Assembly: GCA_012841375.1 (NCBI GenBank)
Contig: DUUV01000121.1
Span: forward strand, 30,186 to 94,185
Length of the DNA stretch: 64,000 nt
Origin: Candidatus Fermentithermobacillaceae bacterium
Lineage (GTDB): Bacteria; Bacillota; Sulfobacillia; Fermentithermobacillales; Fermentithermobacillaceae
Reading direction: 5' to 3'
Part shown: piece after piece, positions 11,174 through 56,061 of the stretch
Layout: each line of letters starts with the position of its first letter
How positions within the stretch are numbered: the stretch's first letter is position 1
Notes under the pieces: model-generated
What the model was told of the DNA's origin: nothing
Databases searched by the model: none
What the model saw: the letters and a program-made list of their open reading frames with translations, nothing else
Made by a program: the position numbers and the translations under genes

Positions 11174-11174
11174 G

Positions 11175-12110
11175 TCATTGCCTCCACGCCATCGGTGAAG
11201 AAACGTAGTACTCTTGTGTCCAGCGTCCGTAAAGCCTCGCCCAGTCCAGGTCCGACCACTCAAGCGCTATTTCCATGGAATAGTCCCTGGGTGGCATGGT
11301 CACGGGATTTGACCGGAGCATCGGCACGAACCCTCCCGGATAGAGGCGCCCCAACTCGGCGATCAATGTGTGACGGGGTCTGTTTACGTGGACATACCAG
11401 TCCTCGGCGTTTTCTCCTACGACCACGTCCAGGTGGGCATGGGGGATACCGGGCGTTACGTCGTAGAGCCTTAGGGCCGGTCTGGACAAACCCCACTCGG
11501 ATATGTGTCTCTCCATGGTCCGCCTGTAGTGCTCGTGAGTGATCTCCCAGTAGGCGTAGACCCACTGGGGGTCACGGGCCATGAGGACCAACCTGTCCGT
11601 GCCGTACCGTTGGGGGAGAAAATACTGCTCATCCCTGAAAGCTTTCGGGTCCTGAGGCCTCTTGTCCCTGTCATCTCCGCTGGACGGATGCCGCTCATCG
11701 ACGAAGTCTCTGGGCCAGGCATAGGCCCCCGGTTGAAACTCGATGGTCTCGGCGGCCTCCCAAGCCAGTTCCACTTCTTTTGAGAGATTGTCTTTTCGCA
11801 AGGAACGGTCCTTGAGCGCGCCCAGGGCTCTGGATCCTCCAACCCTGGGACGTTCCACCCCGGACAAACGGTCCCTATATAGGGCCTTGTCGGGGTCAAT
11901 CTCTTCGGGGGGCACGCCGATCTCTGACGAGGTTTCCATATGGCCCTGTCGGCGCCCCTCCGCCGGCATGCCGGTCTCACGGCGCCGGCGCGCGAACAAC
12001 ACCAGTAAAAGCCCTGCCGCTATTGCTATTATGAGCCCGAGAAACCAGTCCACGAATAGGATTCCTCCCGAAGAGCCAAAATTCCAAAGACACTCGCCCA
12101 CGGGGCGCAT
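11175..12110 (-). CDS. DUF4912-domain protein with N-terminal membrane anchor
   Basis: WVYAYWEITHEHY...WYVHV motifs of DUF4912; this family is recurrently found next to GH57 genes; N-terminal TM helix. Confidence 0.7.
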   Translation of the reverse strand: MRPVGECLWNFGSSGGILFVDWFLGLIIAIAAGLLLVLFARRRRETGMPAEGRRQGHMETSSEIGVPPEEIDPDKALYRDRLSGVERPRVGGSRALGALKDRSLRKDNLSKEVELAWEAAETIEFQPGAYAWPRDFVDERHPSSGDDRDKRPQDPKAFRDEQYFLPQRYGTDRLVLMARDPQWVYAYWEITHEHYRRTMERHISEWGLSRPALRLYDVTPGIPHAHLDVVVGENAEDWYVHVNRPRHTLIAELGRLYPGGFVPMLRSNPVTMPPRDYSMEIALEWSDLDWARLYGRWTQEYYVSSPMAWRQ

Positions 12111-15794: not shown

Positions 15795-15897
15795 GAGACT
15801 GAGGAATGTCTCGTCGTGCGCTCATAGGATTTACAGGAACGACCGGCGTCTTCCGAAGTCACAGAAGATATGGATATCGTGAGTGAAGGTGGTTTCG

Positions 15898-17346
15898 TTG
15901 GCGATCCTTGAGATCAGGAAGTTTGGAGACCCGGTATTGCGGAAAGCCTCCAGGCCGGTGCCGCGGGTCAACAACGCGGTACGCAAGATACTAGATGACA
16001 TGCTGGAGACTATGCGGAATGCCTCGGGGGCCGGCCTGGCCGCGCCTCAAGTGGGAATCTCAAAGAGGATAGTGATAGTAGACATCGGGGAAGGACCCCT
16101 GTTCCTCGTAAATCCGGAGATCGTCTCGGTCTCAGAAGAGACCCAGATTGGTGTCGAGGGATGCCTCAGTTTTCCGGGTTACATAGGTGAGGTTGAGAGG
16201 CCTCTCAAGATCACTGTGAAAGCGCTGGACCGGGACGGGCATGACGTATGGGTGGATGCCGAGGGCTACCTAGCCAGGGCCTGCTGCCATGAAATTGATC
16301 ACCTGGACGGCGTTTTGTACACCGACCGGGCAACGACCATCTCAGAGGTCAAGAAGGAACCTGACGAACCCGAAGGGGAAGAGGCAAAGGAGAGAGAGAT
16401 CACGGCTGTTTTCATGGGGAGCCCGGAGTTTGCCGTACCTTCTCTGGATGAACTGGTGACCTCAGGCGTCAAGGTGGAGCTCGTCGTGACCCAGCCGGAC
16501 CGTCCCTTTGGGAGGAAGCAGGAGATACGCCCCACCCCCGTCAAAGCCAGAGCCATGGAGCTGGGCATTCCGGTTCTCACTTGCGAGCGGGTGGGAGATC
16601 CCGGCGTTGTACGCAAGATCCGCGAAATCGCCCCGGACTTTGTCATTGTCGCCGCCTTCGGACAGAAGCTCCCTGAGGAGGTCTTGTCGGCCCCGAAGAT
16701 CGCGTGCTTGAATGTGCACCCGTCGCTACTCCCCAAGTACAGAGGCGGTAACCCGGTCCAAAGAGCGATCATGAACGGCGACACGGCGACAGGCGTCTCC
16801 ATCATGTACATGAGCGAGAAAGTGGATGCGGGCGACATCGTCCTCAGGCGGGAGGTCCCCATCGGCCCCAATGAGACCTTTGGGACGCTGGAAAGGAGGT
16901 TGGCCTCGTTGGGAGCTCACGTCCTTGTCGAGGCCGTGCGCCTCTTGGCGTCCGGTTCGGTCGCCCGGATACCACAAGATGAACCGGAAGCCACTATCGC
17001 CCGGCACCTCTCCAAAGGCGAAGAGGTGATCGACTGGCGAAGGCCCGCTGTGGAGGTTCACAACCTGGTTAGAGGCCTTTCACCCAAGCCGGGAGCAGTT
17101 ACTTATTTGGACGGACAACGTATCAAGATATGGCGGACTCGCCTTCCTCTTGAACTCCATGAAGGATCCCACACTGCGGGTAGTATAATTGGGGTAGAAG
17201 GCGAATCGGCGCTCGTCCAGTGCGGCGATGTCCCCATCGCCGTTTTGGAGGTTCAGCCTGAAGGCCGGAGCAGCATGAGCGCTCAAGCGTTTCTCATGGG
17301 GCTCAGGTCGAGAAATCGTGTATTCGGTGGGAGGGTAGAGACATGA
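15898..17346 (+). CDS. def-fmt: Fused peptide deformylase / methionyl-tRNA formyltransferase (Def-Fmt single ORF)
   Basis: Def motifs GAGLAAPQVG, EGCLSFPG, HEIDHLDG (aa 1-~160), acidic linker KKEPDEPEGEEAKERE, then Fmt from ITAVFMGSPEFAVPSL with HPSLLPKYRGGNP motif; no stop between domains; start TTG 15898 (MAILEI) or GTG 15883. Confidence 0.8.
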   Translation: MAILEIRKFGDPVLRKASRPVPRVNNAVRKILDDMLETMRNASGAGLAAPQVGISKRIVIVDIGEGPLFLVNPEIVSVSEETQIGVEGCLSFPGYIGEVERPLKITVKALDRDGHDVWVDAEGYLARACCHEIDHLDGVLYTDRATTISEVKKEPDEPEGEEAKEREITAVFMGSPEFAVPSLDELVTSGVKVELVVTQPDRPFGRKQEIRPTPVKARAMELGIPVLTCERVGDPGVVRKIREIAPDFVIVAAFGQKLPEEVLSAPKIACLNVHPSLLPKYRGGNPVQRAIMNGDTATGVSIMYMSEKVDAGDIVLRREVPIGPNETFGTLERRLASLGAHVLVEAVRLLASGSVARIPQDEPEATIARHLSKGEEVIDWRRPAVEVHNLVRGLSPKPGAVTYLDGQRIKIWRTRLPLELHEGSHTAGSIIGVEGESALVQCGDVPIAVLEVQPEGRSSMSAQAFLMGLRSRNRVFGGRVET

Positions 17347-42098: not shown

Positions 42099-42757
42099 AG
42101 GCGATCCTGGAAAGGGCGCTCCTCTCTCTTTCACCGGCCTGTAGGGAAGAAGCCCTGACACACGTTTCCTATGCCAACGAGAAAGGTTCTCCGATCAACA
42201 ACGAGCGCCTGGAGTTCCTGGGAGACGCAGTCTTGTACTTGGCCGTCGGGTCCATCCTCTACGGGCGGTACCCCTCGTCTTCGGAAGGTGATCTCACAAG
42301 GATGAGGGCTTCTCTGGTATCGGGAGCCAACTTGGCGAGGATTGCCCTTGAGGGAGGGCTGGGAGACCTTATCCGTCTGGGAAAAGGCGAACAGGCCTCT
42401 GGAGGGCACAGCCGTCCGAGGGTTCTGGGCAGCGCGTTGGAGGCCCTCATCGGCGGGGTGTTTGTTGAACACGGATGGCGAAGGGCGCTTTCCTTGGTCA
42501 AGGAGATCTACGCCGGGACGACCTTCGATTCGGTCCCGGTTGATCCGAAAACCAGAGTCCAGGAGTTGGTCCAGAGGACTCCCGGGGGCACGCTGGACTA
42601 CCGTGTCGTCAAAGTGGAGGGGCCCGACCACCGCCGTCTATTCACTGTTGCCTGCGTCGTGAACGGCGAGGAGGTCTCGACCGGTGAGGGTAGCTCAAAG
42701 AAGGAAGCGGAAGAACGGGCGGCCGCGGCTTACCTGCGGGTTGTCAGGGAGACTTGA
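42095..42757 (+). CDS. rnc: Ribonuclease III
   Basis: [11 protein letters not shown] RNase III signature plus C-terminal dsRBD. Confidence 0.9.
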
Positions 42758-43310
42758 CGATGAGCACCACTTTCCCGTCTATTGTGTCGGGCAAGAGCAA
42801 GATGCCGGGCCTCAAGGCGTCGACGAAGACGTCCGGATCGCCGGCTTTTCCATACCTGCGTACCAGATGCTTCGACCCCTTGACGCTTACCCAGATGAGG
42901 TCGCCCTGGAAACAGGGGGCCTGGGGGTCCACAACCAGCACGTCGCCTCTGGATACCAATGGCGGGAACTCGGACTTGGTGAGCACCACGCCGTAGCTGT
43001 GGGGTCCGGCCTGCTTGCGGATGTACTCCCAGAGGCCGGTGGGCAGCTCCCGGGCATTACCCTCCGAATACAGAGGGAAGGAGGACTCGCCTGAGTCCTT
43101 CACGTAGGTCCCCGTTGTCTCGGGGGCAGGCTGAGGGGAAGTACGTCGCAGCACGGCAAGCCTGAAGTCCTTGAGCCCGCGGAAGCCCGCTTTCGCCAGC
43201 CAGTAGTACACCGATTTCTCCTCAGCGTATCCGAGCTCGGCGGCGATGTCCTTGGCTGTGGCGTTGGGGTTCTGCATCACAATATGTACCATGTCGTCTA
43301 TAATGGACAA
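42744..43310 (-). CDS. HTH domain + peptidase S24 (LexA/CI-like) domain protein
   Basis: N-terminal HTH (AKDIAAELGYAEEKSVYYWL), C-terminal region (VLTKSEF..GDVLVVD...GDLIWVSVKGSKHLVRRYG) resembling the LexA S24 autopeptidase fold; convergent 14-nt overlap with rnc. Confidence 0.5.
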   Translation of the reverse strand: MSIIDDMVHIVMQNPNATAKDIAAELGYAEEKSVYYWLAKAGFRGLKDFRLAVLRRTSPQPAPETTGTYVKDSGESSFPLYSEGNARELPTGLWEYIRKQAGPHSYGVVLTKSEFPPLVSRGDVLVVDPQAPCFQGDLIWVSVKGSKHLVRRYGKAGDPDVFVDALRPGILLLPDTIDGKVVLIVKSP

Positions 43311-43432: not shown

Positions 43433-46400
43433 TTGCTGAAAAAGCTGACTCTACACGGCTTTAAATCTTTTTGCGACAGGACAGAGATAACTCTTGGCTC
43501 GGGGGCAACCGCTATCGTGGGGCCCAACGGCTGCGGGAAGTCCAATCTCGCAGACGCCTTGAGATGGGTGCTGGGCGAGCAGAACGCCCGTGTACTCAGG
43601 TCTTCGAAGCAGCAGGATTTCATCTTTTCCGGCACCGAGACCCGGAAAGCCATGGGCTCTTGCGAGGTAAGGCTCTTGTTCGACGGAGTCACGGAAGATG
43701 CCGAGACCGAAATCGTCCGCCGGCTCAGCCGGGACGGGACAAGCGAATACCGTCTGAACGGCAAGGTATGTCGTTGGAAGGACATTGTCGAGAGTCTGGC
43801 GGGCACCGGGCTTTCCCATACGGGTTACGTGGTCATCGGGCAGGGTACCATTCAAGAACTTGCATCGGGACGTCCGGAAGACAGGCGTCTTTGGATCGAG
43901 GAAGCATCGGGCGTAGCTCGCGTCAGGCTGGACAAGAGGGACATGGAGTCGCGTCTTGGACACGCCGCGGCCGAGCTCAAGCGGCTCGATGACCTTACGG
44001 TGGAACTGGTCTCCAGGAAAGAGCGGTTGGAGGCCGACCGTGACTCAGCGAGGAAGTACCGTGAGCTGGTCTCTAAGAAACGCGACGTGGAACTGGCTAT
44101 GTGGCTCACTCAGGCAGAAGAGGAACACCGACGGATCGGCAACCTCATGAGGAGGCTTGAGAAGCACCGGGCCGAACGCGACAGTATGGAGTTGGCTGCG
44201 CCGCGCCTGAAGGAACGCGAGGCATCGCTCCTGGAGAAGAGAACGCCTCTCGATGAAGCCATCTCCGAGTCTGCCCGCTTGAGGGAAGAGACTGCGGCGG
44301 CTCTCCTCGCGTTGGAGAAAGAACGTGACGCGGCCAGGGGGCAGTCCACGGCGCTTATCCGAGAGATTGAGAACCGGTCTGCTAGAAGAGAAGCGCTCAA
44401 GAAGGATTTGGAGAAGCTGGCCGGAGAGGAAACCTTTCTCTCTTCACGGAGGGAATCGCTGGCGTCACGGCTCCAAGAGGCGGCGGACTTGCTTCAGGGA
44501 GCCGAGTCGGAGCGAGCCAAGCACGAAGACTTGCGCAGGGAGTGCAGCGAGAAGGCCATTGCTCTCCGGACGGAGGTAGTCGAGCTTACAGGGGAGTTGG
44601 CCAGACTCCAGCGGTCCAGAGACGACCTCCGGAAAAGACTGGACGAATACCGGCGCCAGAGCAGGGAGCTTGCTTCCTGGCTCGTGGCCTCTAAGGCCAA
44701 GGTAGAGTCGGAGAGCGCCCTGGCGGGCGACATGTCCAGGCGACTTCAGGAGGAGTTGGCCAGGCGCTCGGAGCTTCAGGAAAAGATCACGGCCCTCGAG
44801 TCCCGGATTTCCGCGGCCAGGGCAGCGCTTGAGAAGGAGCTCGCCGCCGAGAAGAACCTTGGGGCGCGTCTCTCGGCCCAGAGAGCCAGGAAGAAGCTAT
44901 TGGAGGACCTGGAGAAGGCCTTTGAGGGGTACGGCAAGGGGCCCCGTTCGGTGCTTGAGGCAGGGTCTCAGGGCAGGCTCAGAGGCGTCGTGGGCTCGGT
45001 CAGCCAGCTCATATCATGCGAGGCCAAATACATACCGGCGCTGTCCGCCGCCATCGGAGGGGCGGCGGAACACATAGTTGTCGAGGACGAGGAAGCCGCC
45101 AAGGCTGCCATCGCGATGCTCAGGAACATAAAGGGTGGAAGAGCCACCTTCCTTCCCATAAACCTCCTGCGTCCTCGCGACATGCACCCTCGAGCCCGTG
45201 AGACCATGTCCCGGATGAAAGGAGTGCAGCCGCTTCTATCGGTAGTGTCCTGTCCCGAGAAACTTCAGGCGTGCGCCAGATACCTTTGCGGGCGCATAGC
45301 GCTGGCAGAGGATATGGATACGGCCCTACGCTTCATGAAGGCGTCGGGATGGGTTACCCGAGTTGTCACCTTGTCGGGAGAAAGCATTGAGCCGGGAGGG
45401 GCCATGACGGGCGGCGAAGCTCCCCGGAGCGAGGCGTTGTTCAGGAGAAAGCAGGACCTCCTTGAGCTGGCGGCGGGCGAGAAGAAGATGGCCGAAGAGC
45501 TGGACCGTGTGTTGGCCAATCGGAAGGCCGCAGAGAAGGAAGTTCAGGACCTCACGCGGGAGCGCGAACAAAGCCTCTCCGCCCTGGGACGGGTGGCTAC
45601 CCAAGTTTCCAGGCTGGAAGAACAGCTCGCAGGGGTCGAGGCCTCCCTCTCATCACTCCGGTCCGAGATCGAAAGGCGTGAACCGGAAACGGCTTCCCTC
45701 AAGAGAGAGGAAGAAGGAGTCCTTTCCGAGCTGCGCTCGGCAGGCGACCGCCTGAACGACTTATCTCAGGCCATGACGGCAAAGCAACGGGAACTGGAAA
45801 AACTGGACGCCGAGATAAGACTGGCGTCAGAGTCCGACCGGAAGTCATCGGATGAGATAAAAAGGCTGTCGGCCGAAAAAGAGGTCTTGGAGCGGGAACT
45901 CTCATCGGTCCTGAGAAGGCTCGACGGCATTGTAGGGGAGAAATCGTCCCACGAGAAGGCCCTCATGGACGAGGAGAGCGAGATCCAGAGACAGTCCCGA
46001 AACCTTGAGGAGCTAGGGAACCTCACCGAGTCACTTGGGGCGCGCATATCGGGGCTGGAGGAAGAGTCCAGGCGCCTTACGAGGCTCTTTGAGGAGAAGT
46101 CGTCCGAGAGAGAGGCGCTTCTATCGGCTATATCCGAGTGTCAAGCGGAGATGGCCCGCGTGGAGCGTGACTCGGCAACCCTGGCCTCCAGGATCGAAGA
46201 GACGACGGCCGAGCTTGAGGTTCAACGGCAGGCCCATGAGGACACGAAAGACCTGATAGCCTCTGAGTTCGGAGTGAACGATCTCTCTACGGTGCCCTTT
46301 GAGAGGCTGGCCAGGGCAGAGGGTCTGGCGAAGATCGAAGAACTGGACGGATCCCTGAGGGAGCTGGGCAGCGTCAACTTAAAAGCCGAGGAAGAGTTCA

Positions 46401-46975
46401 CCGAGGTAAGCGACAGGATCGAGCTCATCGCCCTTGAGAGGGCCGATGTTGAAGAAGCCATCGAGGAGATCCACCGGGCCAGAGAGGTAGTGGAAAAGGA
46501 GATCGAGAGGAGGTTCCTTGAGACTTTTTCGGCGGTCCGAGACAGTTTCCGCGAAGTGTTCAAGGACCTCTTCGGCGGAGGCCGCGGCGACCTGACTCTC
46601 ATTGAGGAGACACTGGGCGTTGAGGTTTCGGCCGAGCCGCCGGGCAGGCGGCAAAAACACCTTAACCTCTTGTCGGGTGGCGAAAGATCACTCTGTGGTA
46701 TTGCCCTGATCTTCGCTATACTGTCTGTTAAGCCGTCTCCACTCATCGTGTTGGACGAGGTGGACACGGCTTTGGACGAGGCCAACGTGGTTAGGTTCGG
46801 GCAGTTCTTGAGGAGATACTCCAGCGACACCCAGTTCCTCGTCATAACGCACCAGAAAGCCACCATGGAGGCGGCTGATCTACTTTACGGAGTTACTATG
46901 CAGGAACCGGGCGTGTCCAAGGTGTTCGGCATGAAATTGGACGACGGCCGGAAGGGGCAAGGAGAGGTCCAATGA
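43433..46975 (+). CDS. smc: Chromosome partition protein Smc
   Basis: TTG start; N-terminal Walker A GPNGCGKSN, long coiled coils, hinge, C-terminal LSGGERSL signature and Walker B VLDEVD. Confidence 0.95.
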   Translation: MLKKLTLHGFKSFCDRTEITLGSGATAIVGPNGCGKSNLADALRWVLGEQNARVLRSSKQQDFIFSGTETRKAMGSCEVRLLFDGVTEDAETEIVRRLSRDGTSEYRLNGKVCRWKDIVESLAGTGLSHTGYVVIGQGTIQELASGRPEDRRLWIEEASGVARVRLDKRDMESRLGHAAAELKRLDDLTVELVSRKERLEADRDSARKYRELVSKKRDVELAMWLTQAEEEHRRIGNLMRRLEKHRAERDSMELAAPRLKEREASLLEKRTPLDEAISESARLREETAAALLALEKERDAARGQSTALIREIENRSARREALKKDLEKLAGEETFLSSRRESLASRLQEAADLLQGAESERAKHEDLRRECSEKAIALRTEVVELTGELARLQRSRDDLRKRLDEYRRQSRELASWLVASKAKVESESALAGDMSRRLQEELARRSELQEKITALESRISAARAALEKELAAEKNLGARLSAQRARKKLLEDLEKAFEGYGKGPRSVLEAGSQGRLRGVVGSVSQLISCEAKYIPALSAAIGGAAEHIVVEDEEAAKAAIAMLRNIKGGRATFLPINLLRPRDMHPRARETMSRMKGVQPLLSVVSCPEKLQACARYLCGRIALAEDMDTALRFMKASGWVTRVVTLSGESIEPGGAMTGGEAPRSEALFRRKQDLLELAAGEKKMAEELDRVLANRKAAEKEVQDLTREREQSLSALGRVATQVSRLEEQLAGVEASLSSLRSEIERREPETASLKREEEGVLSELRSAGDRLNDLSQAMTAKQRELEKLDAEIRLASESDRKSSDEIKRLSAEKEVLERELSSVLRRLDGIVGEKSSHEKALMDEESEIQRQSRNLEELGNLTESLGARISGLEEESRRLTRLFEEKSSEREALLSAISECQAEMARVERDSATLASRIEETTAELEVQRQAHEDTKDLIASEFGVNDLSTVPFERLARAEGLAKIEELDGSLRELGSVNLKAEEEFTEVSDRIELIALERADVEEAIEEIHRAREVVEKEIERRFLETFSAVRDSFREVFKDLFGGGRGDLTLIEETLGVEVSAEPPGRRQKHLNLLSGGERSLCGIALIFAILSVKPSPLIVLDEVDTALDEANVVRFGQFLRRYSSDTQFLVITHQKATMEAADLLYGVTMQEPGVSKVFGMKLDDGRKGQGEVQ

Positions 46976-47889
46976 GTCTTTTTCAGAAACTCCGCCAGGG
47001 GCTAAAGAGGACATCGGCCAACCTTAGAGACGCCGTGTCAGGCATTTTCACCGGGGGTCGGGTGACAGGCGAATTCCTGGACGACCTGGAAGAGGTGCTC
47101 TTGATGTCCGATGTCGGCGTCAAAGCCGCCATGGCTCTCCGGGACAGGGTTCAGGAAGAGAACAAGAAGAGGAATCTGAAGAGCCCGGATGAGCTCTTCG
47201 GCGTGATGGAGGAGCTTGTTGCCGGCATCTTGAAGGGTGTCGCGGAGCCGCTCAAGACGGCGTCGTCAGGACCCACCGTGTACGTGCTTGTAGGAGTAAA
47301 TGGAGCCGGCAAGACCACGACCATCGCGAAACTGGCGGACCGCTGGCGCAGCCAAGGAAAGAGCGTGATCATGGCCGCCGCAGATACTTTCAGGGCGGCC
47401 GCCCAGGACCAGCTCGAAGTGTGGGCAAAGAGGACCGGCTCATCGATTATCGCCCACCAACCGGGTTCCGACCCGGGGGCCGTCGCCTATGACGCAGTGA
47501 GGTCGGCCGTTGCCAGAAATGTGGATTTCGTGCTCGTGGACACGGCCGGCAGGCTTCACACGAAACGAAACCTGATTGAGGAGCTGCGCAAGATCATCCG
47601 GGTTATCCGGCGGGAGTTGCCAGGCGCCCCTCACGAGGTCATCCTGGTGATCGACGGTACCACCGGCCAAAACGGTCTGAACCAGGCCAAGGTCTTCACC
47701 GAGGCGGCCGAAGTCACCGGTGTCTGCATAACCAAGCTGGACGGGTCATCCAAGGGCGGCGTTGCCGTCGCAATAGCCGACGAGCTGGGCTTGCCAATCA
47801 AACTGGTTGGTGTGGGAGAGTCTTCAGATGACCTCCGCGACTTCGATCCAGAAGCATTCGCCAAGGCTTTGTTCGCAAGGCCTGATTAA
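46972..47889 (+). CDS. ftsY: Signal recognition particle receptor FtsY
   Basis: NG domain with [20 protein letters not shown] motifs. Confidence 0.95.
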
Positions 47890-47903
47890 GGAGGCTGGAG
47901 AGA

Positions 47904-48818
47904 GTGGAGGGCCATCGCGGGGTTATCTTCAACATCCAGAGGTTCTCGCTTCACGATGGCCCGGGTATACGGACCACCGTATTTCTTAAGGGATGTCCGC
48001 TACGGTGTCCTTGGTGCCATAATCCCGAAAGCCAGAGCCGGCTTCCCGAGCTCATGTATTGGGAGTCAAGGTGTTCGGGGTGCGGCGCCTGTGTACCGGC
48101 TTGTTCAAGGGGCGCGCTCAGGCTTCAGGACGGGCGTCCCGTCCTGAGCTCCGGGCAGTGCGCGGCATGTGGAGACTGTGTGAAGAGCTGCCCGGCGGGC
48201 GCCCGGGGGATTTCCGGCCGGACAGTGACTCCCCATGAGGTGCTGGCGGAGGTCCTAGGCGACACCGTGTTCTACGACCAGTCCGGCGGCGGGGTGACCT
48301 TCTCGGGAGGCGAACCTCTCGCGCAGCCGGAGTTCCTGGAAGAAACACTAAGGCTCTGCAAGGATGCGGGGCTCTCTACGGTTGTGGACACCTGCGGATT
48401 TGCCCACTGGGACGTGCTGGAGAGGATCGCCCCTCTTGTCGATCTCTTCCTCTACGACGTGAAACTCATGGATGATGCTGCCCATATGGAGAGCGTAGGG
48501 GTCTCAAACAAGATCATCCTCGACAACCTCCGTCGCCTCGCTTCGGCCGGAAGCAAGGTGACGGCCCGATTGCCGGTCATCCCAGGAGTAAACGACGGCA
48601 TGGCCAACATACAGAAGACTGGGGAATACCTTTCGTCGGTAGGGGTCCGGCGGGTGACGCTCTTGCCCTATCATGACCTGGGGAAGGAGAAATACGTCCG
48701 CTTGGGTAGGGAATACCCGCTGGAGGACATGGCGTCATTGCCGGACGAAAGTATTGAGAGAATATACCATACTCTAAGGGGCTTCGGACTGCAGGTCGAT
48801 GTGAGCGGGCAGTCTTGA
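47904..48818 (+). CDS. Glycyl-radical enzyme activating protein (radical SAM activase with two extra ferredoxin-like clusters)
   Basis: GTG start; CPLRCPWCHN radical-SAM motif plus CSGCGACVPAC and CAACGDCVKSCP cluster motifs; 14 nt after ftsY. Confidence 0.85.
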   Translation: MEGHRGVIFNIQRFSLHDGPGIRTTVFLKGCPLRCPWCHNPESQSRLPELMYWESRCSGCGACVPACSRGALRLQDGRPVLSSGQCAACGDCVKSCPAGARGISGRTVTPHEVLAEVLGDTVFYDQSGGGVTFSGGEPLAQPEFLEETLRLCKDAGLSTVVDTCGFAHWDVLERIAPLVDLFLYDVKLMDDAAHMESVGVSNKIILDNLRRLASAGSKVTARLPVIPGVNDGMANIQKTGEYLSSVGVRRVTLLPYHDLGKEKYVRLGREYPLEDMASLPDESIERIYHTLRGFGLQVDVSGQS

Positions 48819-48876
48819 CCGGCTCACGCGAGAAGATTTGCGTCTCGCTCCTGAAGTAAATAGCGGGGGATGAGCC

Positions 48877-51237
48877 GTGAGAGAGAGAGTACAAAGACTT
48901 CGAGAGGAGAGTCTCCAGGCGGTGCCCGAGCTCTCCATTGAGCGCGCCCTCATCGTTACCGAGGTGTACAAGGAGTATCAGGGCAAGGTTTCGGTCCCGG
49001 TCCTCAGGGCCTTGACGTTCAAGGCGCTGATGGAGAAAAAGGCCGTCTACATAGGAGAAAGGGAACTCATTGTGGGGGAACGGGGCGAGCGACCCAAGAG
49101 AACCCCCACTTACCCAGAACTGTGCTGCCACACGCTTCAAGATTTCCAGGTCATAAACGATAGAGAGAAGACGTTTTTCCGGGTAAGCCCTGAGGCTAGG
49201 AAGGCTCAGGCGGAGACGGTCATTCCGTACTGGGAAGAGAGGTCTATGAGACACCGTCTTTTTTCCCAAATGACCCCCATATGGAAAGACTGTTACGAAG
49301 CCGGCATATTCACCGAGTTCATGGAGCAGCGGGCGCCCGGACATACCGTTCTCGACGGCAAGGTCTACGAAAAAGGCTTCCTTGACTTCAAGGACGACAT
49401 CCAAAGGGCCATTCGCTCGCTGGACTTCACAGGCGACCCTCGTGCTTACGAAAAGCGCGAGGAACTGAAGGCCATGGACATCTGCTGCGACGCCATCATC
49501 ACCTATGCGGAGCGCCACGCCTGTCTGGCCAGAAAGATGGCTTCAGAGTGCGATGACCCTGTGCGGAGACAGGAACTCCTCAAGATCGCCCAGGTGTCCT
49601 CTCACGTGCCCGCCCATCCTCCCAGGACTTTCTGGGAAGCGCTGCAGATGTACTGGTATGTCCACATAGGCGTCATCACCGAGCTGAACACCTGGGATTC
49701 CTTCAACCCGGGGAGGCTCGACCAGCACCTGTACCCCTTCTACAAGCGAGAGCTAGAGGAAGGAACCCTCACGCGTGAGGACGCCAAGGAACTCCTGGAG
49801 TGCTTCTGGGTGAAGTTCAACAACCAACCCGCGCCGCCCAAAGTGGGCATCACTCTCGCCGAGAGCGGCACCTATACCGATTTCGCGAACATCAATACGG
49901 GCGGGCTGAGGCCCGACGGCTCGTGCGGGGTGAACGATGTCTCTTACCTGGTGCTGGAGGTCATTGACGAGATGCGCCTTCTCCAGCCTTCGTCAAACAT
50001 CCAGTTGAGCGCCAAGAGCCCGGACTACTTTCTGCGGAAAGCCTGCGAGATCGTGAGGAAGGGGTGGGGTCAGCCTTCCATCTTCAACGCCGACGTGGTG
50101 GTCCAGGAGATGCTCTTGGCGGGCAAGTCGGTTGTTGACGCGCGGTCCGGCGGGACTTCCGGTTGCGTGGAGACGGGCGCTTTCGGGAAAGAGAGTTACA
50201 TCCTCACCGGATATCTGAACCTCCCCAAGATCCTTGAAATAACCCTTCACAATGGGGTGGACCCCCGTACAGGCAAGGAGATAGGCAAGAAGACAGGCCC
50301 ACCTTCGTCCTGGGTTTCCTTTGAGGATCTCATGAGAGCGTACGAGGAACAGCTCAGCCACTTCATAGACGTGAAGATAAGGGGCAACAACGTCATCGAG
50401 AAGCTGTACGCCGAGAACATGCCCTGCCCATTTCTATCCACGGTCGTGAGCGACTGCATTGAGAACGGCACAGACTACAACGCCGGCGGCGCCAGGTATC
50501 ACACGAGGTACATCCAGGGGGTAGGCATCGCGTCGGTGACCGACAGCCTCTCCGCTTTGAAGGAGCTCGTGTTCGAGAGGCGACTTCTCACGGCAGACAG
50601 TCTTGTGGAGGTTCTGGGCAGGAATTTCGAAGGCGCAGAAGCTCTCCGCCAGACTGCCGTATCAAGGTGCCCCAAGTACGGGAACGACGACGACGCGGCC
50701 GACGACATAATGAGAATGGTTTTTGACGCTTTCTACCGCCTTGTGGACGGACGGAAGAGCTCCACCGGAGGTACCTACCACATAGACATGCTGCCTACCA
50801 CATGCCACGTCTATTTCGGCTCGGTTACAGGTGCCACCCCCGACGGAAGACTCGCCGGCGAACCATTCTCGGAGGGCATTTCTCCGGTGCAGGGCCGCGA
50901 TAAGTTCGGGCCTACGGCGGTCCTCAAGTCAGCCTCAAAGATGGACCACGTGAGGACCGGCGGGACCCTCATGAACCAGAAGTTTTCGCCGAAGGTCCTT
51001 GAGGGAGAAGAAGGGCTCAGGGCTCTCATGAACTTGGTCAGGGGGTACTTCAAGCTTGGTGGTCACCACATCCAGTTCAATGTGGTCGACGCCGTCACGC
51101 TCCGTGACGCCCAGGAACATCCTGAGAAGTACAGGGACCTGATCGTCAGAGTCGCCGGCTACAGCGATTACTTCTGCGATCTCAGCCGTGCCCTACAGGA
51201 CGAGATAATAGCGAGGACGGAGCACAAGTCCATCTGA
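48877..51237 (+). CDS. Glycyl radical enzyme (PFL2/eliminase-type; substrate unknown)
   Basis: 786 aa; C-terminal glycyl radical motif RVAGYSDYF; thiyl loop GGTSGCVETG with single Cys and Glu two residues later (Cys-x-Glu as in dehydratase/lyase-type GREs rather than PFL CC). Confidence 0.85.
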   Translation: MRERVQRLREESLQAVPELSIERALIVTEVYKEYQGKVSVPVLRALTFKALMEKKAVYIGERELIVGERGERPKRTPTYPELCCHTLQDFQVINDREKTFFRVSPEARKAQAETVIPYWEERSMRHRLFSQMTPIWKDCYEAGIFTEFMEQRAPGHTVLDGKVYEKGFLDFKDDIQRAIRSLDFTGDPRAYEKREELKAMDICCDAIITYAERHACLARKMASECDDPVRRQELLKIAQVSSHVPAHPPRTFWEALQMYWYVHIGVITELNTWDSFNPGRLDQHLYPFYKRELEEGTLTREDAKELLECFWVKFNNQPAPPKVGITLAESGTYTDFANINTGGLRPDGSCGVNDVSYLVLEVIDEMRLLQPSSNIQLSAKSPDYFLRKACEIVRKGWGQPSIFNADVVVQEMLLAGKSVVDARSGGTSGCVETGAFGKESYILTGYLNLPKILEITLHNGVDPRTGKEIGKKTGPPSSWVSFEDLMRAYEEQLSHFIDVKIRGNNVIEKLYAENMPCPFLSTVVSDCIENGTDYNAGGARYHTRYIQGVGIASVTDSLSALKELVFERRLLTADSLVEVLGRNFEGAEALRQTAVSRCPKYGNDDDAADDIMRMVFDAFYRLVDGRKSSTGGTYHIDMLPTTCHVYFGSVTGATPDGRLAGEPFSEGISPVQGRDKFGPTAVLKSASKMDHVRTGGTLMNQKFSPKVLEGEEGLRALMNLVRGYFKLGGHHIQFNVVDAVTLRDAQEHPEKYRDLIVRVAGYSDYFCDLSRALQDEIIARTEHKSI

Positions 51238-51275
51238 CCGAGAGGCTCCTTGGCGTGGGTCAGAGGCCGAAGCCG

Positions 51276-52520
51276 TCAGAGAAGGCGGTTGTACACTTCG
51301 GCCACTCTATATGCCGTGGCTTCCGCGGAATGCTTGGAGCGGACCAGTTCCAGGCCGAAAGCCCGTATTTCGTCGAGGTTGGCGTCGGATAGGGCAGAGG
51401 CGATCTCCGAGGCCAAGGTGGCTGCTTCTACCGGTCTGGGCGCCCCGTTTGAGGTGAAGTTGCGTTCTTCCAGTTCGTCCACGTTATCGGGAGTGACCTG
51501 TCCGAAGTCGCCTTGGGGTCCGGCCACGATGCACGGCTTGCCGCATGCCATGGCCTCAAGGACGACACGGGACATGCCTATGACCAGATCGCTTGCCTGG
51601 TAGACCCGGGCCATGTCGCTGACGAATCCGAGACACTTTACCATCTCCCGGCCCGAGCGTCTGTTGACCTCTTGCGCCGCCCTTTCGACTCTAGAGAGCG
51701 ACTCGCCGTCGCCCGCGATGAGGAGGGATATGCCCGGAAAGGTCTGGGCCAGACGAGAGACGGCTTCTATGGTAAGGCAAGCCGTCGCGCTCAGTTCCGG
51801 GGTCATCCGCGAGGCATAGACCAAGACGGGACCCTGAACCGCCTCGGGCACTACGGCCATCCTTATGTCCCGGGACTCCTCCTCAGAGAGAGGCCGGAAC
51901 TCCCGGCAATCGATGCCGTTGGGAATGACCGTTATCTTCTCTCCGTCAAACCCGAACTCTCTCGTGATGTAATCCTTGATGACATCGCTGACGGCTATGG
52001 TCAAGTCGCCCTGACGCGACACAAGGTTCCATGGAAAACCGGATACGAAAGTCCAGTGATAGGTTGTCACCAGCGGGACGTGCAGTTGTCTTGAAACGTA
52101 GGTCCCGATCCAGGCGGGGATCCTGGCGTGAGCGTGGATCAAGTCCACGTTACGCGACTTCACAATATCTATGAGGCTCTTGTATGCCCGGAGCATCTTC
52201 AAAGGGTTTCGGGAGCCCAGCGGCACGTCGAAGTGCTCGATCCCCGAACCCGTAATGTCTTCTACTCGCCGGCCCCCACCGGACGCCACGAGTACATTCC
52301 AGCCCATCTCCCTCAAGGACCTGGACAGGCTGACTATATGAGTCTCGGCTCCCCCAATGTCCAGACCCATAGCCAGTTCCAGCACTACGCGACCCTGGCC
52401 GCTCAAGATATGCTTCTTGGTGTTGCTCACAGTGTTCTGCCTCCCGCCAACGAGCCCCGGATATCGCAGGATATTCCCTGTGGGAGACGGTTTTCCCTGC
52501 AAGGAGCAACTTGACCTCAT
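51276..52520 (-). CDS. Glycosyltransferase family 4
   Basis: GLDIGGAETHIV N-terminus, DLIHAHARIP, C-terminal LEAMACGKPCIV; BshA-like pattern but not specific; true start probably downstream of the ORF-track start. Confidence 0.7.
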   Translation of the reverse strand: MRSSCSLQGKPSPTGNILRYPGLVGGRQNTVSNTKKHILSGQGRVVLELAMGLDIGGAETHIVSLSRSLREMGWNVLVASGGGRRVEDITGSGIEHFDVPLGSRNPLKMLRAYKSLIDIVKSRNVDLIHAHARIPAWIGTYVSRQLHVPLVTTYHWTFVSGFPWNLVSRQGDLTIAVSDVIKDYITREFGFDGEKITVIPNGIDCREFRPLSEEESRDIRMAVVPEAVQGPVLVYASRMTPELSATACLTIEAVSRLAQTFPGISLLIAGDGESLSRVERAAQEVNRRSGREMVKCLGFVSDMARVYQASDLVIGMSRVVLEAMACGKPCIVAGPQGDFGQVTPDNVDELEERNFTSNGAPRPVEAATLASEIASALSDANLDEIRAFGLELVRSKHSAEATAYRVAEVYNRLL

Positions 52521-52568
52521 CCGGTCAAAGGTGTAGGATTCAAGGGTGTAAAGGTTTAAACCAGGACA

Positions 52569-52958
52569 GTGAGGTCTGAAACCGTGTCATACTCGCCCGA
52601 AAAGGTTCATGAGTTCTCGGTCCTTTTCGACCTGTATGGGGAGATGTTGGCTCCCAGGCAACAGGAAGTCCTGACCCTCAAACTGCACGAGGACCTGTCA
52701 CTCATGGAGATCTCGGAGCGGCTGGGGATCTCCAGGCAGGCTTGCGACGATGCCCTCAAGAGGGGCCAGAGGGCCCTGCGCCAACTTGAGGAGAGAATCG
52801 GGCTCCGGGAACGGATTTGCAGTGAAGAGGCCCTCGTCTCCGACATTGTCGCCAAGCTCAGATCCATGAACTCGGAGAACTGGAGAGAAGTCAGAGATAT
52901 GTGCCTCAGGGTACTCTGTCCTATCTTGAGCGGTGGTGATGGCGAAGATGGAGTTTGA
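52569..52958 (+). CDS. ylxM: YlxM/p13-family putative DNA-binding protein (UPF0122)
   Basis: FSVLFDLYGEMLAPRQQEVLTLKLHEDLSLMEISERLGISRQA sigma-70 region-4-like HTH; precedes and overlaps ffh as in the conserved ylxM-ffh operon. Confidence 0.8.
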   Translation: MRSETVSYSPEKVHEFSVLFDLYGEMLAPRQQEVLTLKLHEDLSLMEISERLGISRQACDDALKRGQRALRQLEERIGLRERICSEEALVSDIVAKLRSMNSENWREVRDMCLRVLCPILSGGDGEDGV

Positions 52959-54264
52959 GAATCTTTCAGCGCGCCTCGCAGGCGTTTTCAAGAGACTCCG
53001 CGGAAAAGGGAAGCTGTCGGAGAAGGATGTTGAGGAAGCCCTGCGCGAAGTCCGCCTATCGCTCCTTGAGGCAGACGTCAACTTCAAGGTTGTCAGGGAG
53101 TTTATCGCGGCGGTCAAGGAGAAAAGCCTGTCTCAGGAAGTGCTGGACAGCCTCACCCCTGCCCAGCAGGTCATAAAGATAGTAAATGACGAACTGGTCC
53201 ATCTCTTGGGAACCCGGGCAAAACCTTTGGACCTTTCCGGAAACCCGCCTGCCGTGCTGGCTTTGTTCGGGCTCCAAGGCTCAGGCAAGACTTCGGCTGC
53301 CGGAAAGCTGGCCCTCAACCTCAAGAAGAGCGGTCGCCGGGTCATGCTTGTGTCATGCGATGTGTATCGTCCGGCTGCCCAGCGACAACTTGAGATCCTG
53401 GCGGAAAAAGCCGGAGCGGGCTTCTTCACAATGGATACCGGTACCGATCCTGCCGTTATCGCCAAGCAGGGCTACGAAAAGGCGCGCACCTCCGCCTACG
53501 ACGTCGTGATTTTCGACACGGCCGGGCGTACCCAGTTGGATGACGCGATGATGGACGAGGCGAAGCGCATCAAAGAGGCTGTCAGCCCCCGGGAGAGCAT
53601 CCTTGTGGTCGATGCGATGACCGGGCAGGAAGCCTGCAGGGTGGCCGAGGCTTTCGACGAGACCGTCGGACTTACCGGAATCATCCTCACGAAGATCGAC
53701 TCTGATGCCCGTGGCGGCGCTGCGCTTTCCATCGCCAAGGTTACGGGAAAGCCCATCAAGTTCGCCTCAACCGGAGAGAAACTCGAGGACTTCCAGGTAT
53801 TCCATCCCGACCGCATGGCTTCAAGGATACTGGGTATGGGAGATGTCCTCACGCTTATCGAGAAGGCCCAGGCTTCTTTCGATGAGAAGAAGGCCCAGGA
53901 AATGGAGCGCAAGCTCCGCAGGAAAGAGTTCACCCTTGAGGACTTTGTGGACCAAATGAAAGAGGTCAAGAAGATGGGGTCTTTCGGCGACCTCCTCAGG
54001 ATGATCCCCGGTTTCAACAAGATGAAGATAGACGTGGATATAGACCCCAAGGAATGGAGCCGGCTGGAGGCTATAATCAGTTCGATGACGCCTCATGAGA
54101 GGCGGAAGCCCGAGATCATCGACGGGTCCAGAAAGCGAAGGATAGCAAGAGGCAGTGGCACCCAGGTGCAAGATGTAAACCGGCTGCTCAAACAGTTTTT
54201 CCAGGCGAGGAAGATGATGTTCCAGATGTCGCCTGAGAAGATGGGTAGGTTTCGCCTGCCCTGA
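52948..54264 (+). CDS. ffh: Signal recognition particle protein Ffh
   Basis: MEFENLSARL start, GLQGSGKTS, DTAGR, TKIDSDARGG, M-domain; ATG 52948. Confidence 0.95.
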   Translation: MEFENLSARLAGVFKRLRGKGKLSEKDVEEALREVRLSLLEADVNFKVVREFIAAVKEKSLSQEVLDSLTPAQQVIKIVNDELVHLLGTRAKPLDLSGNPPAVLALFGLQGSGKTSAAGKLALNLKKSGRRVMLVSCDVYRPAAQRQLEILAEKAGAGFFTMDTGTDPAVIAKQGYEKARTSAYDVVIFDTAGRTQLDDAMMDEAKRIKEAVSPRESILVVDAMTGQEACRVAEAFDETVGLTGIILTKIDSDARGGAALSIAKVTGKPIKFASTGEKLEDFQVFHPDRMASRILGMGDVLTLIEKAQASFDEKKAQEMERKLRRKEFTLEDFVDQMKEVKKMGSFGDLLRMIPGFNKMKIDVDIDPKEWSRLEAIISSMTPHERRKPEIIDGSRKRRIARGSGTQVQDVNRLLKQFFQARKMMFQMSPEKMGRFRLP

Positions 54265-54862: not shown

Positions 54863-55309
54863 GTGTCTTTGGTGCTTATCTCCAGGGCGGTGACCGTGAA
54901 ATCGAGAGTCACACCCGCGCTCCGGGCCCGGCTCGGAGCAGAGACCCAGAAGGCCATAAGGGATGTTGACGAGGAGATCGAGCGTGCCGCCGCCGAGATC
55001 GAAAGGTGCCGGGCTTCGGGAAGGAACGACGAGGCCGCAGCGCTGGAGCGTAAAGCTCAAGAACTTTCGGCGCGGAAAGACGCCCTTGTGGCCAAGCTCA
55101 AGGAGATCGCCAGGCTTCGCGAGGGCCAGGAAGTTGTGCGGGGCCAGATTCAGGGTTTTTGTGAAGTGAAGGTTGGAGACAACTGGCCGGAGGTCCTGTC
55201 GGCCGAGATCGTCCTGGAGGACGGAAGGGTCGTGGCGTTTCGTGAGGGCGGGTCGGTAACGGTGAAAATGGCTTCAGACAATCAGCTCACCGGAACGCCT
55301 GAGCAATGA
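54863..55309 (+). CDS. ylqD: YlqD-family protein
   Basis: Coiled-coil centre and C-terminal EVKVGDNW motif, location between khpA and trmD as B. subtilis ylqD. Confidence 0.55.
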
Positions 55310-56061
55310 GAATCTACATCCTCACCCTTTTTCCCGAGGTTTTTGGGCCGGTCCTGGACTCGAGCATAGTGGGAAGAGCCAGGGAAGCCGGGATCCTTCA
55401 AGTGACAACGGTCAACATCAGGGATTTCGCCCACGATGCCCACGGCACCGTTGACGATTACCCCTACGGCGGGGGGCCGGGGATGGTCATGAAGCCGGAG
55501 CCCCTTTACGAGGCCCTGGCTTGGGTCCGGCGGGACTCGGAAAGCGAGCCTTACGTGGCGCTGATGACGCCCCAGGGGCGTAGGTTCGCCGCGGGAGTGG
55601 CAAAGGAACTTGCCTGTCGCGATCCGCTGGTCCTGGTGGCCGGTCATTACGAGGGGTTTGACGAGAGGATCCGGTCTTTCGCCCACGATGAGATCTCCAT
55701 AGGAGATTTCGTCCTGACTCGAGGGGAGATCGCGGCCATGGCAGTCTTGGACGCGACATCAAGGTTCCTTCCCGGTGTCCTGGGTGATGAGAACTCGGCC
55801 GAAGCGGACTCGTTTTCAGACGGCCTGCTCGAGGGACCGCAGTACACGAGGCCTCAGGAATTCCTGGGGATGGAGGTTCCCGCCGTGCTTCGAGGAGGGG
55901 ACAGGGCGGCTATCGCGAGGTGGCGGAGAAAGGAATCCCTCCGGCGCACCCTTGAAAGGCGCAAAGACCTCCTGCGTGACGCAGTCTTGACCTACGAGGA
56001 CAGACGCATTTTAGCCGAAGTCTTGAAGGAAGAGAGAAGAGACGGCAACGATTTGTGGTAA
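55306..56061 (+). CDS. trmD: tRNA (guanine37-N1)-methyltransferase
   Basis: [11 protein letters not shown]...[15 protein letters not shown]...[10 protein letters not shown] TrmD signatures. Confidence 0.95.

What the first reader, a model, noticed from the sequence alone, without database searches (positions are those of the whole stretch)
47890..52520. Glycyl-radical enzyme and activase (plus GT4) inserted into the conserved smc-ftsY / ylxM-ffh core locus
In Firmicutes ftsY is normally followed directly by ylxM-ffh. Here a radical-SAM activase (14 nt after ftsY), a 786-aa glycyl radical enzyme with RVAGYSDYF Gly motif and a Cys-x-Glu thiyl loop (GCVETG, eliminase/dehydratase-type rather than PFL-type CC), and an antisense GT4 glycosyltransferase are wedged in between. 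The GRE substrate cannot be inferred from sequence alone; it may be a dehydratase, a lyase or a novel specificity. The tight coupling to ftsY suggests co-transcription with a housekeeping operon.
Basis: partly seen in the sequence, partly recalled or inferred. Interest (0 to 1): 0.6.

Follow-up and report, generated by a model that had tools for sequence, protein, structure and literature searches.

The report
Hydroxyproline dehydratase pair beside ftsY
The "mystery" glycyl-radical enzyme is an ordinary, already-annotated trans-4-hydroxy-L-proline dehydratase (HypD) with its activating enzyme, which in one small group of uncultured heat-loving fermenting bacteria has moved, along with an unrelated sugar-transferase gene, into the gap between two housekeeping genes.

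Summary
A radical-SAM activase (47904-48818), a 786-aa glycyl radical enzyme (48877-51237) and an antisense GT4 glycosyltransferase (51276-52430) lie between ftsY and ylxM-ffh.

The claim that the substrate cannot be inferred is wrong. The enzyme scores 1364 bits against the NCBIfam equivalog model for trans-4-hydroxy-L-proline dehydratase (cut-off 1100). It aligns without a gap over 781 residues (58.6% identity) to the C. difficile HypD crystal structure. It keeps all 15 published catalytic and substrate-binding residues. NCBI already gives this exact protein that name.

The insertion is real but restricted to one clade. Two other genomes show the full arrangement and a third, truncated contig shows its start (FtsY 86-90% or HypD 84-88% identical). 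The three next relatives have ftsY directly followed by ylxM. One of those relatives carries activase-HypD and the GT4 orthologue at other sites. Codon usage is native and there are no mobility scars, so native genes were relocated; this is not a foreign island.

Co-transcription with smc-ftsY is plausible: the spacer is 14 nt with a GGAGG ribosome-binding site, and no promoter- or terminator-like site was found. The ftsY|ylxM junction is interrupted in 16 of 29 sampled loci, so it is not inviolable. Interest is low.

The parts
43433..46975 (+). smc, first gene of the likely transcription unit; overlaps the ftsY start by 4 nt
   Evidence: 1180-aa ORF; SMC_N/SMC_hinge Pfam hits in the public gene table
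46972..47889 (+). ftsY (SRP receptor)
   Evidence: TIGR00064 ftsY equivalog, 343 bits against cut-off 260.7
47890..47903 (+). 14-nt ftsY-activase spacer consisting of a GGAGG Shine-Dalgarno plus 9 nt; left boundary of the insert
   Evidence: Sequence read directly. Equivalent 13-15-nt spacers in L002 and L003. No promoter- or terminator-like site here
47904..48818 (+). Glycyl-radical-enzyme activating enzyme (radical SAM), presumed HypD activase
   Evidence: TIGR02494 PFLE_PFLC 356 bits (cut-off 174). Best equivalog is T4HPD_activ_SAM at 375.8 bits, below its cut-off of 425. CPLRCPWC at residue 31, two CX2CX2CX3C ferredoxin motifs at 57 and 86, GGE at 135
48877..51237 (+). trans-4-hydroxy-L-proline dehydratase (HypD), a glycyl radical enzyme
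   Evidence: NF043068 glycl_HYPD 1364 bits against cut-off 1100. PDB 6vxc HypD 1113 bits; the next structure scores 544. Gap-free 58.6% identity and 15/15 functional residues. The exact protein is named HypD by NCBI
51238..51275 (.). 38-nt spacer between the convergent HypD and GT4 stop codons; no convincing terminator
   Evidence: No terminator-like site. The fold is not better than shuffles, z = -1.2
51276..52430 (-). GT4-family glycosyltransferase of unknown acceptor; not functionally tied to HypD
   Evidence: Glyco_transf_4 and Glycos_transf_1. Best NCBIfam hit is BshA at 66.9 bits, far below its cut-off of 273.7. Orthologues at 52-60% identity sit as stand-alone genes elsewhere in the empty-site genomes
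52511..52539 (+). Promoter-like element of ylxM-ffh (TTGACC-17-TAGGAT) followed by a conserved leader; right boundary of the insert lies just upstream
   Evidence: Consensus scan. The same element and leader are conserved in filled sites (L003, L091) and empty sites (L004-L006)
52584..52958 (+). ylxM (UPF0122 helix-turn-helix protein)
   Evidence: PF04297 61.8 bits. NF045758 YlxM scores 69 bits, below its cut-off of 80. The 124-aa public gene call starts at 52584
52933..54264 (+). ffh (SRP54 homologue)
   Evidence: TIGR00959 ffh 585.6 bits against cut-off 473.2

Best explanation
The GRE is trans-4-hydroxy-L-proline dehydratase (HypD) and the upstream gene is its radical-SAM activase.

Mechanism (inferred from the characterised C. 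difficile enzyme):
- The activase binds a [4Fe-4S] cluster through C31/C35/C38 and cleaves S-adenosylmethionine. The resulting 5'-deoxyadenosyl radical abstracts a hydrogen from Gly761 of HypD.
- The glycyl radical passes to Cys430. The thiyl radical abstracts the C5 hydrogen of hydroxyproline.
- Asp274, supported by His156, Asp335 and Glu432, handles the proton transfers that expel the 4-hydroxyl as water.
- The product is pyrroline-5-carboxylate (P5C), which can be reduced to proline or oxidised towards glutamate elsewhere in the cell.
- Ser330, Tyr446 and Thr641 hold the carboxylate and Phe336 stacks on the ring.

Origin and transcription (inferred):
- The host belongs to the uncultured thermophilic peptide- and amino-acid-fermenting class Ca. 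Fermentithermobacillia (DTU015).
- In this one clade the native two-gene activase-hypD cassette, and separately a native stand-alone GT4 gene, were relocated into the short intergenic gap between the ftsY stop codon and the ylxM promoter.
- Activase-hypD became a 3' extension of the smc-ftsY transcription unit, while ylxM-ffh kept its own promoter.

Shown: identity of the proteins, residue conservation, gene order, and the clade-restricted insertion. Inferred: enzyme activity, co-transcription, and relocation as opposed to transfer from a close relative.
For: Enzyme identity:
- Equivalog model NF043068, 1364 bits against cut-off 1100. The next equivalog, sulfopropanediol dehydratase, scores 557.
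- PDB 6vxc/6vxe HypD scores 1113 bits; the next structure, glycerol dehydratase, scores 544.
- The alignment to C. difficile HypD is gap-free over 781 residues at 58.6% identity. It conserves Phe152, Arg156, His160, Trp277, Asp278, Lys326, Ser334, Asp339, Phe340, Cys434, Val435, Glu436, Tyr450, Thr645 and Gly765. The roles of these residues come from Backman et al. 2020, PMC7077986.
- The exact sequence is named 'trans-4-hydroxy-L-proline dehydratase' by NCBI.
- The activase has the CX3CX2C motif, two ferredoxin motifs and GGE, and its best-scoring equivalog is the HypD activase.

Synteny:
- L003 and L091 share ftsY-AE-HypD-GT4(-)-ylxM. L002 shows ftsY-AE-HypD before its contig ends. L004, L005 and L006 have ftsY directly followed by ylxM.
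- The L006 genome carries AE-HypD at 73% identity elsewhere, next to a prolidase, a Pro_racemase-family gene, an OCD/mu-crystallin gene, an S9 peptidase and a PucR regulator. It also carries a GT4 orthologue elsewhere.

Native origin:
- GC3 and synonymous-codon scores of the three genes fall within the range of the window's other genes.
- No flanking repeats were found.

Transcription:
- The spacer is 14 nt with a Shine-Dalgarno. No promoter-like or terminator-like site was found in that stretch.
- The ylxM promoter and leader are conserved in filled and empty sites.

Lifestyle: the class is described as fermenting peptides and amino acids (PMC10215811).
Against: - No enzymology exists for this orthologue.
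- The activase scores below the equivalog cut-off for HypD activases (375.8 against 425).
- No P5C reductase, proline reductase, prolidase or Hyp transporter lies in the 64-kb window, so the fate of P5C is unknown here.
- Co-transcription rests on spacing and a simple consensus scan only. A non-consensus promoter inside the 3' end of ftsY cannot be excluded.
- Relocation within the genome cannot be strictly separated from gene transfer between close relatives.
Confidence: 0.88

Rival explanations
1. The GRE is a HypD-like enzyme with a different or novel substrate, such as another hydroxylated cyclic amino acid, a diol or a sulfonate. This is the open possibility the first reader raised.
For: GRE eliminases share one fold and the CXE loop, and specificity can change with few residues. 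Related structures (glycerol dehydratase, propanediol dehydratase, CutC, HplG, IslA) all match at 400-544 bits. No Hyp-pathway partner is nearby.
Against: All 15 residues that define Hyp binding and catalysis are kept in a gap-free alignment. These include Asp278 and Asp339, reported as strictly conserved in HypD and absent from other eliminases, and Ser334, which replaces the Phe found in other eliminases. The score is more than twice that of any other characterised family. Close homologues in relatives sit in proline/peptide catabolic neighbourhoods.
Confidence: 0.04
2. The three genes are a horizontally acquired genomic island from outside the lineage, inserted as one block.
For: They are present in one clade only and absent from the same site in the three next relatives. 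GC skew is lower over HypD and GT4 than over the flanking genes.
Against: GC, GC3 and synonymous codon use are native, and HypD has the best codon score in the window. There is no integrase, transposase, tRNA or flanking repeat. Both AE-HypD and the GT4 have orthologues at other sites in the empty-site genomes, with identities (HypD 73%, AE 54%, GT4 52-60%) in line with housekeeping genes of the same genome pairs (FtsY 68-72%, SMC 52-55%, Ffh 80-81%). The best non-clade HypD hits in a 5.8-billion-protein database include that relative's own copy.
Confidence: 0.08
3. The GT4 works together with HypD and the activase as one functional module.
For: The three genes stay adjacent in every complete copy of the arrangement seen (window, L003, L091).
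Against: The GT4 is on the opposite strand with its own Shine-Dalgarno. Its orthologues are stand-alone genes with no GRE nearby in L089 and L090. HypD loci in relatives have no GT4. No known HypD chemistry needs a glycosyltransferase.
Confidence: 0.03

Closest known systems
Clostridioides difficile HypD (trans-4-hydroxy-L-proline dehydratase; PDB 6VXC/6VXE) with its activase
   Same: Same length class (786 aa against 789 aa), gap-free alignment, 58.6% identity. Identical Gly loop (RVAGYSD) and Cys loop (GCVETG). All 15 catalytic and binding residues are kept. A dedicated radical-SAM activase with two extra ferredoxin-type clusters is adjacent.
   Different: No adjacent P5C reductase, a gene reported as colocalised with hypD in many clostridial genomes (PMC6219649). 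The host is an uncultured thermophilic DTU015-class bacterium. The genes are embedded between ftsY and ylxM, not in a catabolic cluster. The activase lies upstream of hypD here and in all relatives examined.
Activase-HypD cassettes of other Ca. Fermentithermobacillia-related MAGs (L082, L085, L086)
   Same: Same gene order (activase then HypD) and same protein lengths. HypD is 73-75% and the activase 52-56% identical.
   Different: Those copies lie downstream of leuS (L085, L086), or next to prolidase, Pro_racemase-family, OCD/mu-crystallin, S9 peptidase, DAO/Pyr_redox-type oxidoreductase genes and a PucR-type regulator (L082, L085). In the window the pair is detached from all such partners and from any nearby regulator.
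Other GRE eliminases (B12-independent glycerol dehydratase 1R8W, propanediol dehydratase 5I2A, choline TMA-lyase CutC, isethionate sulfite-lyase IslA, HplG 7VUA)
   Same: Same fold, glycyl-radical domain and CXE thiyl loop.
   Different: Scores are half or less of the HypD score (399-544 bits against 1113). NCBIfam equivalog scores are far below their cut-offs, for example CutC 501 against 1050. The HypD-specific Asp278, Asp339 and Ser334 are present here; the paper reports them as not conserved in these enzymes.

Membership tests
HypD (trans-4-hydroxy-L-proline dehydratase, NCBIfam NF043068) | Whole-protein score at or above the curated equivalog cut-off | tested here: met
   1364.1 bits against cut-off 1100, covering model positions 2-783 of 784
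HypD | C-terminal glycyl radical motif (RVxG[YF]) and Cys loop with the C-x-E motif | tested here: met
   VRVAGYSDY with Gly761 and GCVETG with Cys430/Glu432, aligned to Gly765 and Cys434/Glu436 of C. difficile HypD
HypD | HypD-specific acid/base network His160, Asp278, Asp339, Glu436 (each essential by mutagenesis, PMC7077986) | tested here: met
   His156, Asp274, Asp335 and Glu432 are all conserved in identical local contexts
HypD | Substrate-binding residues Ser334, Tyr450, Thr645 (carboxylate), Phe340 (ring stacking), Phe152, Trp277, Arg156, Lys326 | tested here: met
   Ser330, Tyr446, Thr641, Phe336, Phe148, Trp273, Arg152 and Lys322 are all conserved
HypD | Catalyses Hyp -> P5C + H2O after activation | not testable with these tools
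   Requires anaerobic enzymology
HypD | Neighbouring P5C reductase or other proline-pathway genes (typical in Clostridia, not defining) | tested here: not met
   No P5CR, prolidase, proline reductase or Pro_racemase gene among the ORFs and public gene calls scanned across the 64-kb window. Such partners are present near HypD in relatives
HypD-activating enzyme (NCBIfam NF043069 T4HPD_activ_SAM) | Whole-protein score at or above the equivalog cut-off | tested here: not met
   375.8 bits against cut-off 425. It is nevertheless the best-scoring activase family; the next are HpsH 316.8 and CutD 309.5
Glycyl-radical-enzyme activase subfamily (TIGR02494 PFLE_PFLC) | Score above cut-off; CX3CX2C radical-SAM motif; two auxiliary ferredoxin-like CX2CX2CX3C motifs; GGE SAM-binding motif; adjacency to a GRE | tested here: met
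   356.2 bits against cut-off 174.35. Motifs at residues 31, 57, 86 and 135. The gene ends 58 nt upstream of HypD
BshA (bacillithiol GT4, TIGR03999), considered for the GT4 | Score at or above the equivalog cut-off | tested here: not met
   66.9 bits against cut-off 273.7. Only generic GT4/GT1 Pfam domains were found
Mobile genomic island | Integrase or transposase, flanking direct repeats or tRNA target, atypical composition | tested here: not met
   The only ORFs of 80 aa or more in the interval, apart from frame-overlapping ones, are the three genes. Only short internal chance repeats were found. GC3 and codon use are native

The most novel reading that the evidence does not exclude
In this clade the activase-hypD pair has been captured by the smc-ftsY housekeeping operon and cut off from the regulator and peptidase genes that accompany it in relatives. 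Hydroxyproline dehydration would then be expressed constitutively with cell-division and secretion functions, for instance as a standing route to proline or P5C in a collagen- or peptide-rich thermophilic digester niche. That would be a small example of regulatory rewiring of an oxygen-sensitive radical enzyme by relocation.
Probability: 0.3. Interest if true: 0.25.

Novelty: already known. Interest (0 to 1): 0.12.

Why it matters
It matters little beyond correct annotation. HypD is a well-characterised, widespread glycyl radical enzyme, and this copy is already named as such in the public record. Three modest points remain.

- It adds a thermophilic, uncultured-class (DTU015 / Ca. Fermentithermobacillia) example of anaerobic hydroxyproline use. 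This fits the predicted peptide-fermenting lifestyle.
- It shows that the ftsY|ylxM junction, often treated as a fixed Firmicutes landmark, is a recurrent landing site for unrelated cargo.
- Appending an oxygen-sensitive catabolic enzyme pair to the smc-ftsY operon is a small, testable case of operon rewiring.

Tried and rejected
- Novel GRE specificity: rejected on equivalog score, gap-free alignment to the crystal structure and 15/15 functional residues.
- Foreign island: rejected on native codon usage, absence of repeats or mobility genes, and orthologues at other sites in relatives.
- GT4 as BshA or as a HypD partner: rejected.
- Terminator between the convergent HypD and GT4 genes: none predicted, and the fold is no better than shuffles.
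- Regulatory RNA in the window: Rfam found nothing at gathering thresholds.
- P5C reductase or other proline-pathway partners in the 64 kb: none found.
- One context look-up failed because the window protein 6050-7909 is not on record with that exact sequence.
- Structure prediction was judged redundant, given 58.6% gap-free identity to a solved structure, and was not run.
- I could not search the rest of the source genome (GCA_050952025.1) for proC, prd genes, leuS context or a second hypD copy.
Full report
**1. Observation**

The ORF map shows, on the plus strand:
- smc (43433-46975)
- ftsY (46972-47889)
- a 304-aa ORF (47904-48818)
- a 786-aa ORF (48877-51237)

On the minus strand there is a GT4-type ORF (51276-52520 at its longest). 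On the plus strand again come ylxM (about 52584-52958) and ffh (52933-54264).

Pfam and NCBIfam confirm every assignment at very low E-values: FtsY, Ffh and YlxM; Radical_SAM plus ferredoxin motifs; PFL-like plus Gly_radical; Glyco_transf_4 plus Glycos_transf_1.

The sequence shows the ftsY TAA stop at 47887-47889, immediately followed by GGAGG and, 9 nt later, the activase GTG.

The GT4 most likely starts at the GTG at 52430. That codon is preceded by GGGAGG and matches the 384-aa public gene call.

**2. What the GRE is**

It can be.
- The protein scores 1364 bits against NCBIfam NF043068 (trans-4-hydroxy-L-proline dehydratase, equivalog, cut-off 1100). The next equivalog reaches 557 bits, far below its own cut-off.
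- Against all PDB sequences the best match is C. difficile HypD (6vxc/6vxe) at 1113 bits. The runner-up, B12-independent glycerol dehydratase, scores 544.
- The HypD alignment has no gap over 781 residues and is 58.6% identical.

From the structural and mutational paper on HypD (PMC7077986) I took every residue assigned a role:
- radical chemistry: Gly765, Cys434
- CXE loop: Val435, Glu436
- acid/base network: His160, Asp278, Asp339
- carboxylate binding: Ser334, Tyr450, Thr645
- charge balance: Arg156, Lys326
- ring packing: Phe152, Trp277, Phe340

All 15 are conserved at the corresponding positions (native number minus 4), in near-identical local contexts. The paper describes Asp278 and Asp339 as strictly conserved in HypD but not in other eliminases, and Ser334 as replacing a Phe found in other eliminases. 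These are discriminating positions.

The exact sequence is in NCBI under the name "trans-4-hydroxy-L-proline dehydratase [Bacillota bacterium]".

**3. The activase**

The upstream ORF belongs to the GRE-activase subfamily (TIGR02494, 356 bits against cut-off 174). Its best equivalog is the HypD activase, at 375.8 bits, below that model's cut-off of 425.

It has the CX3CX2C radical-SAM motif (C31/C35/C38), two CX2CX2CX3C auxiliary-cluster motifs and a GGE motif.

Its assignment as the HypD activase rests on adjacency plus best-family ranking, not on passing the equivalog threshold.

**4. Source and lineage**

The window is part of a public MAG contig, GCA_050952025.1 JBMNKD010000001.1, 820 kb.

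The closest FtsY loci are labelled Ca. Fermentithermobacillaceae or unclassified Bacillota. That family belongs to class Ca. Fermentithermobacillia.

The class was formerly called DTU015. It is described as anaerobic, thermophilic, spore-forming fermenters of peptides and amino acids, found in thermophilic digesters (PMC10215811).

A hydroxyproline dehydratase fits that lifestyle. HypD has also been reported in many environmental Firmicutes (PMC6219649).

**5. Is it an insertion?**

I fetched 80 loci around FtsY relatives and mapped the window's proteins onto them.
- L003 (FtsY 86% identical) has the full order ftsY-activase-HypD-GT4(-)-ylxM-ffh.
- L002 (FtsY 90%) shows ftsY-activase-HypD before its contig ends.
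- L091 (HypD 84% identical) also has the full order.
- The next relatives, L004 (82%), L005 (72%) and L006 (68%), have ftsY followed by ylxM after only about 120 nt.

So the insertion is real and is shared by a small clade of at least four distinct genomes. It is absent from the rest of the family.

In the empty sites the intergenic region holds a promoter-like element (TTGACC-17-TAGGAT/TAATAT) and a conserved leader. The same element sits to the right of the insert in the window (52511-52539) and in L003 and L091. The insert therefore lies between the ftsY stop codon and the ylxM promoter.

**6. Where the genes came from**

The empty-site genome JAXGZG (L006) carries activase-HypD at 73% identity on another contig. 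There it lies downstream of leuS, followed by a prolidase (Creatinase_N/Peptidase_M24), a Pro_racemase-family gene, an OCD/mu-crystallin gene, an S9 peptidase and a PucR-type regulator.

Two further relatives show the same activase-then-HypD order:
- L086: downstream of leuS.
- L082: next to a DAO/Pyr_redox/ferredoxin oxidoreductase set, DUF885, a prolidase and a PucR-type regulator.

The GT4 has orthologues at 52-60% identity as stand-alone genes at unrelated positions in the JAXGZG and JBLNCN genomes.

Identities of the three genes to these relatives are HypD 73%, activase 54% and GT4 52-60%. Housekeeping proteins of the same genome pairs are in the same range: FtsY 68-72%, SMC 52-55%, Ffh 80-81%.

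GC3 and synonymous-codon scores of the three genes fall within the range of the window's other genes, and HypD scores best of all. There are no integrase or transposase ORFs and no flanking repeats.

The best reading is that two native units, activase-hypD and the GT4, were relocated. A foreign island is unlikely.

**7. How special is the site?**

Twenty-nine fetched loci have ftsY and ffh on one strand. Thirteen are direct and sixteen carry 1.3-7.9 kb of other genes in between. Examples:
- Lachnospiraceae: a PALP enzyme (threonine-dehydratase-like by my own reading of its motifs), with RACo-like, YitT or AI-2E transporter genes.
- A Lactobacillus: a C69 dipeptidase, an amidohydrolase and an amino-acid permease.
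- L079: addB/addA.

The premise that ftsY is normally followed directly by ylxM holds for this family's ancestor. It is not a general rule.

**8. Expression**

smc overlaps ftsY by 4 nt. ftsY and the activase are 14 nt apart with only a Shine-Dalgarno between them. The activase and HypD are 58 nt apart.

No sigma-70-like promoter was found on the plus strand between 46500 and 52500. No terminator-like site was found after ftsY, the activase or HypD.

The 38-nt convergent spacer after HypD does not fold better than shuffled sequence. Rfam finds no RNA element in the window.

Co-transcription of activase-hypD with smc-ftsY is thus the simplest model. It remains an inference from spacing and a crude scan.

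**9. Pathway context**

Among the ORFs and public gene calls scanned across the 64 kb, none is a P5C reductase, proline reductase, prolidase or Pro_racemase gene. The fate of P5C in this organism cannot be read from the window, and I could not search the rest of the genome.

**10. Verdict**

This is an ordinary, already-annotated HypD and activase pair.
- Incorrect: the suggestion of an uninferable or novel substrate.
- Overstated: the three-gene "island". The GT4 is an unrelated passenger.

What remains mildly interesting is the clade-specific relocation of an oxygen-sensitive catabolic enzyme pair onto the 3' end of the smc-ftsY operon, away from its usual regulator and peptidase neighbours.

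Interest is 0.12. Novelty: already known.

Noticed in passing
window 15883-17346 (+): A single 487-aa ORF combines a peptide deformylase domain (residues 9-152) with a complete methionyl-tRNA formyltransferase (Formyl_trans_N/C, residues 176-474). This looks like a def-fmt gene fusion where two adjacent genes would be usual. It could be real or an assembly or frameshift artefact.
   Followed up: no
window 42744-43310 (-): A 188-aa ORF with no Pfam or NCBIfam match lies antisense between rnc and smc. It is conserved at the same position in L003-L006 at 45-78% identity. It is a lineage-specific conserved gene of unknown function inside the same 'core' locus.
   Followed up: partly
window 52540-52583 (+); also L003, L091, L004-L006 upstream of ylxM: The leader between the ylxM -10 element and the start codon (GGTGT.AAGG..ACC..ACAG.G.GG) is almost invariant at the DNA level, even in relatives whose FtsY is only 68% identical. 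No Rfam family matches it. It may be a regulatory 5' UTR element of the ylxM-ffh operon.
   Followed up: partly
window 54863-56061 (+): ylqD (54863-55309) abuts trmD (55306-56061) with no rimM between them. From memory, rimM sits between ylqD and trmD in the Bacillus subtilis order rpsP-khpA-ylqD-rimM-trmD-rplS.
   Followed up: no
L014, L015, L042, L061, L062, L064 (gap between ftsY and ylxM/ffh): Many Lachnospiraceae carry a conserved PALP-family enzyme of about 403-412 aa immediately after ftsY, followed by variable cargo. L045 (Lactobacillus) has a C69 dipeptidase, an amidohydrolase and an amino-acid permease. L079 has addB/addA. The ftsY|ylxM junction is a recurrent insertion point.
   Followed up: partly
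L082 10646-14069 (+): In a related MAG, HypD is followed by a five-gene set (Fer2_4, Pyr_redox_2, 4Fe-4S ferredoxin, SO_alpha_A3/Fer2_BFD, DAO), then DUF885, a prolidase and a PucR-type regulator. It may be a downstream oxidoreductase system for proline or P5C-type substrates. It was not analysed.
   Followed up: no
window 198-1430 (+), 5583-7909 (+), 9539-12110 (-): Other metabolic genes in the window are a glycogen-synthase-like GT4/GT5 protein, a polyferredoxin plus an aldehyde:ferredoxin oxidoreductase, and a GH57 branching enzyme next to a DUF4912 protein. Sporulation genes (SASP, GPR protease) and a Tad pilus cluster are also present.
   Followed up: no
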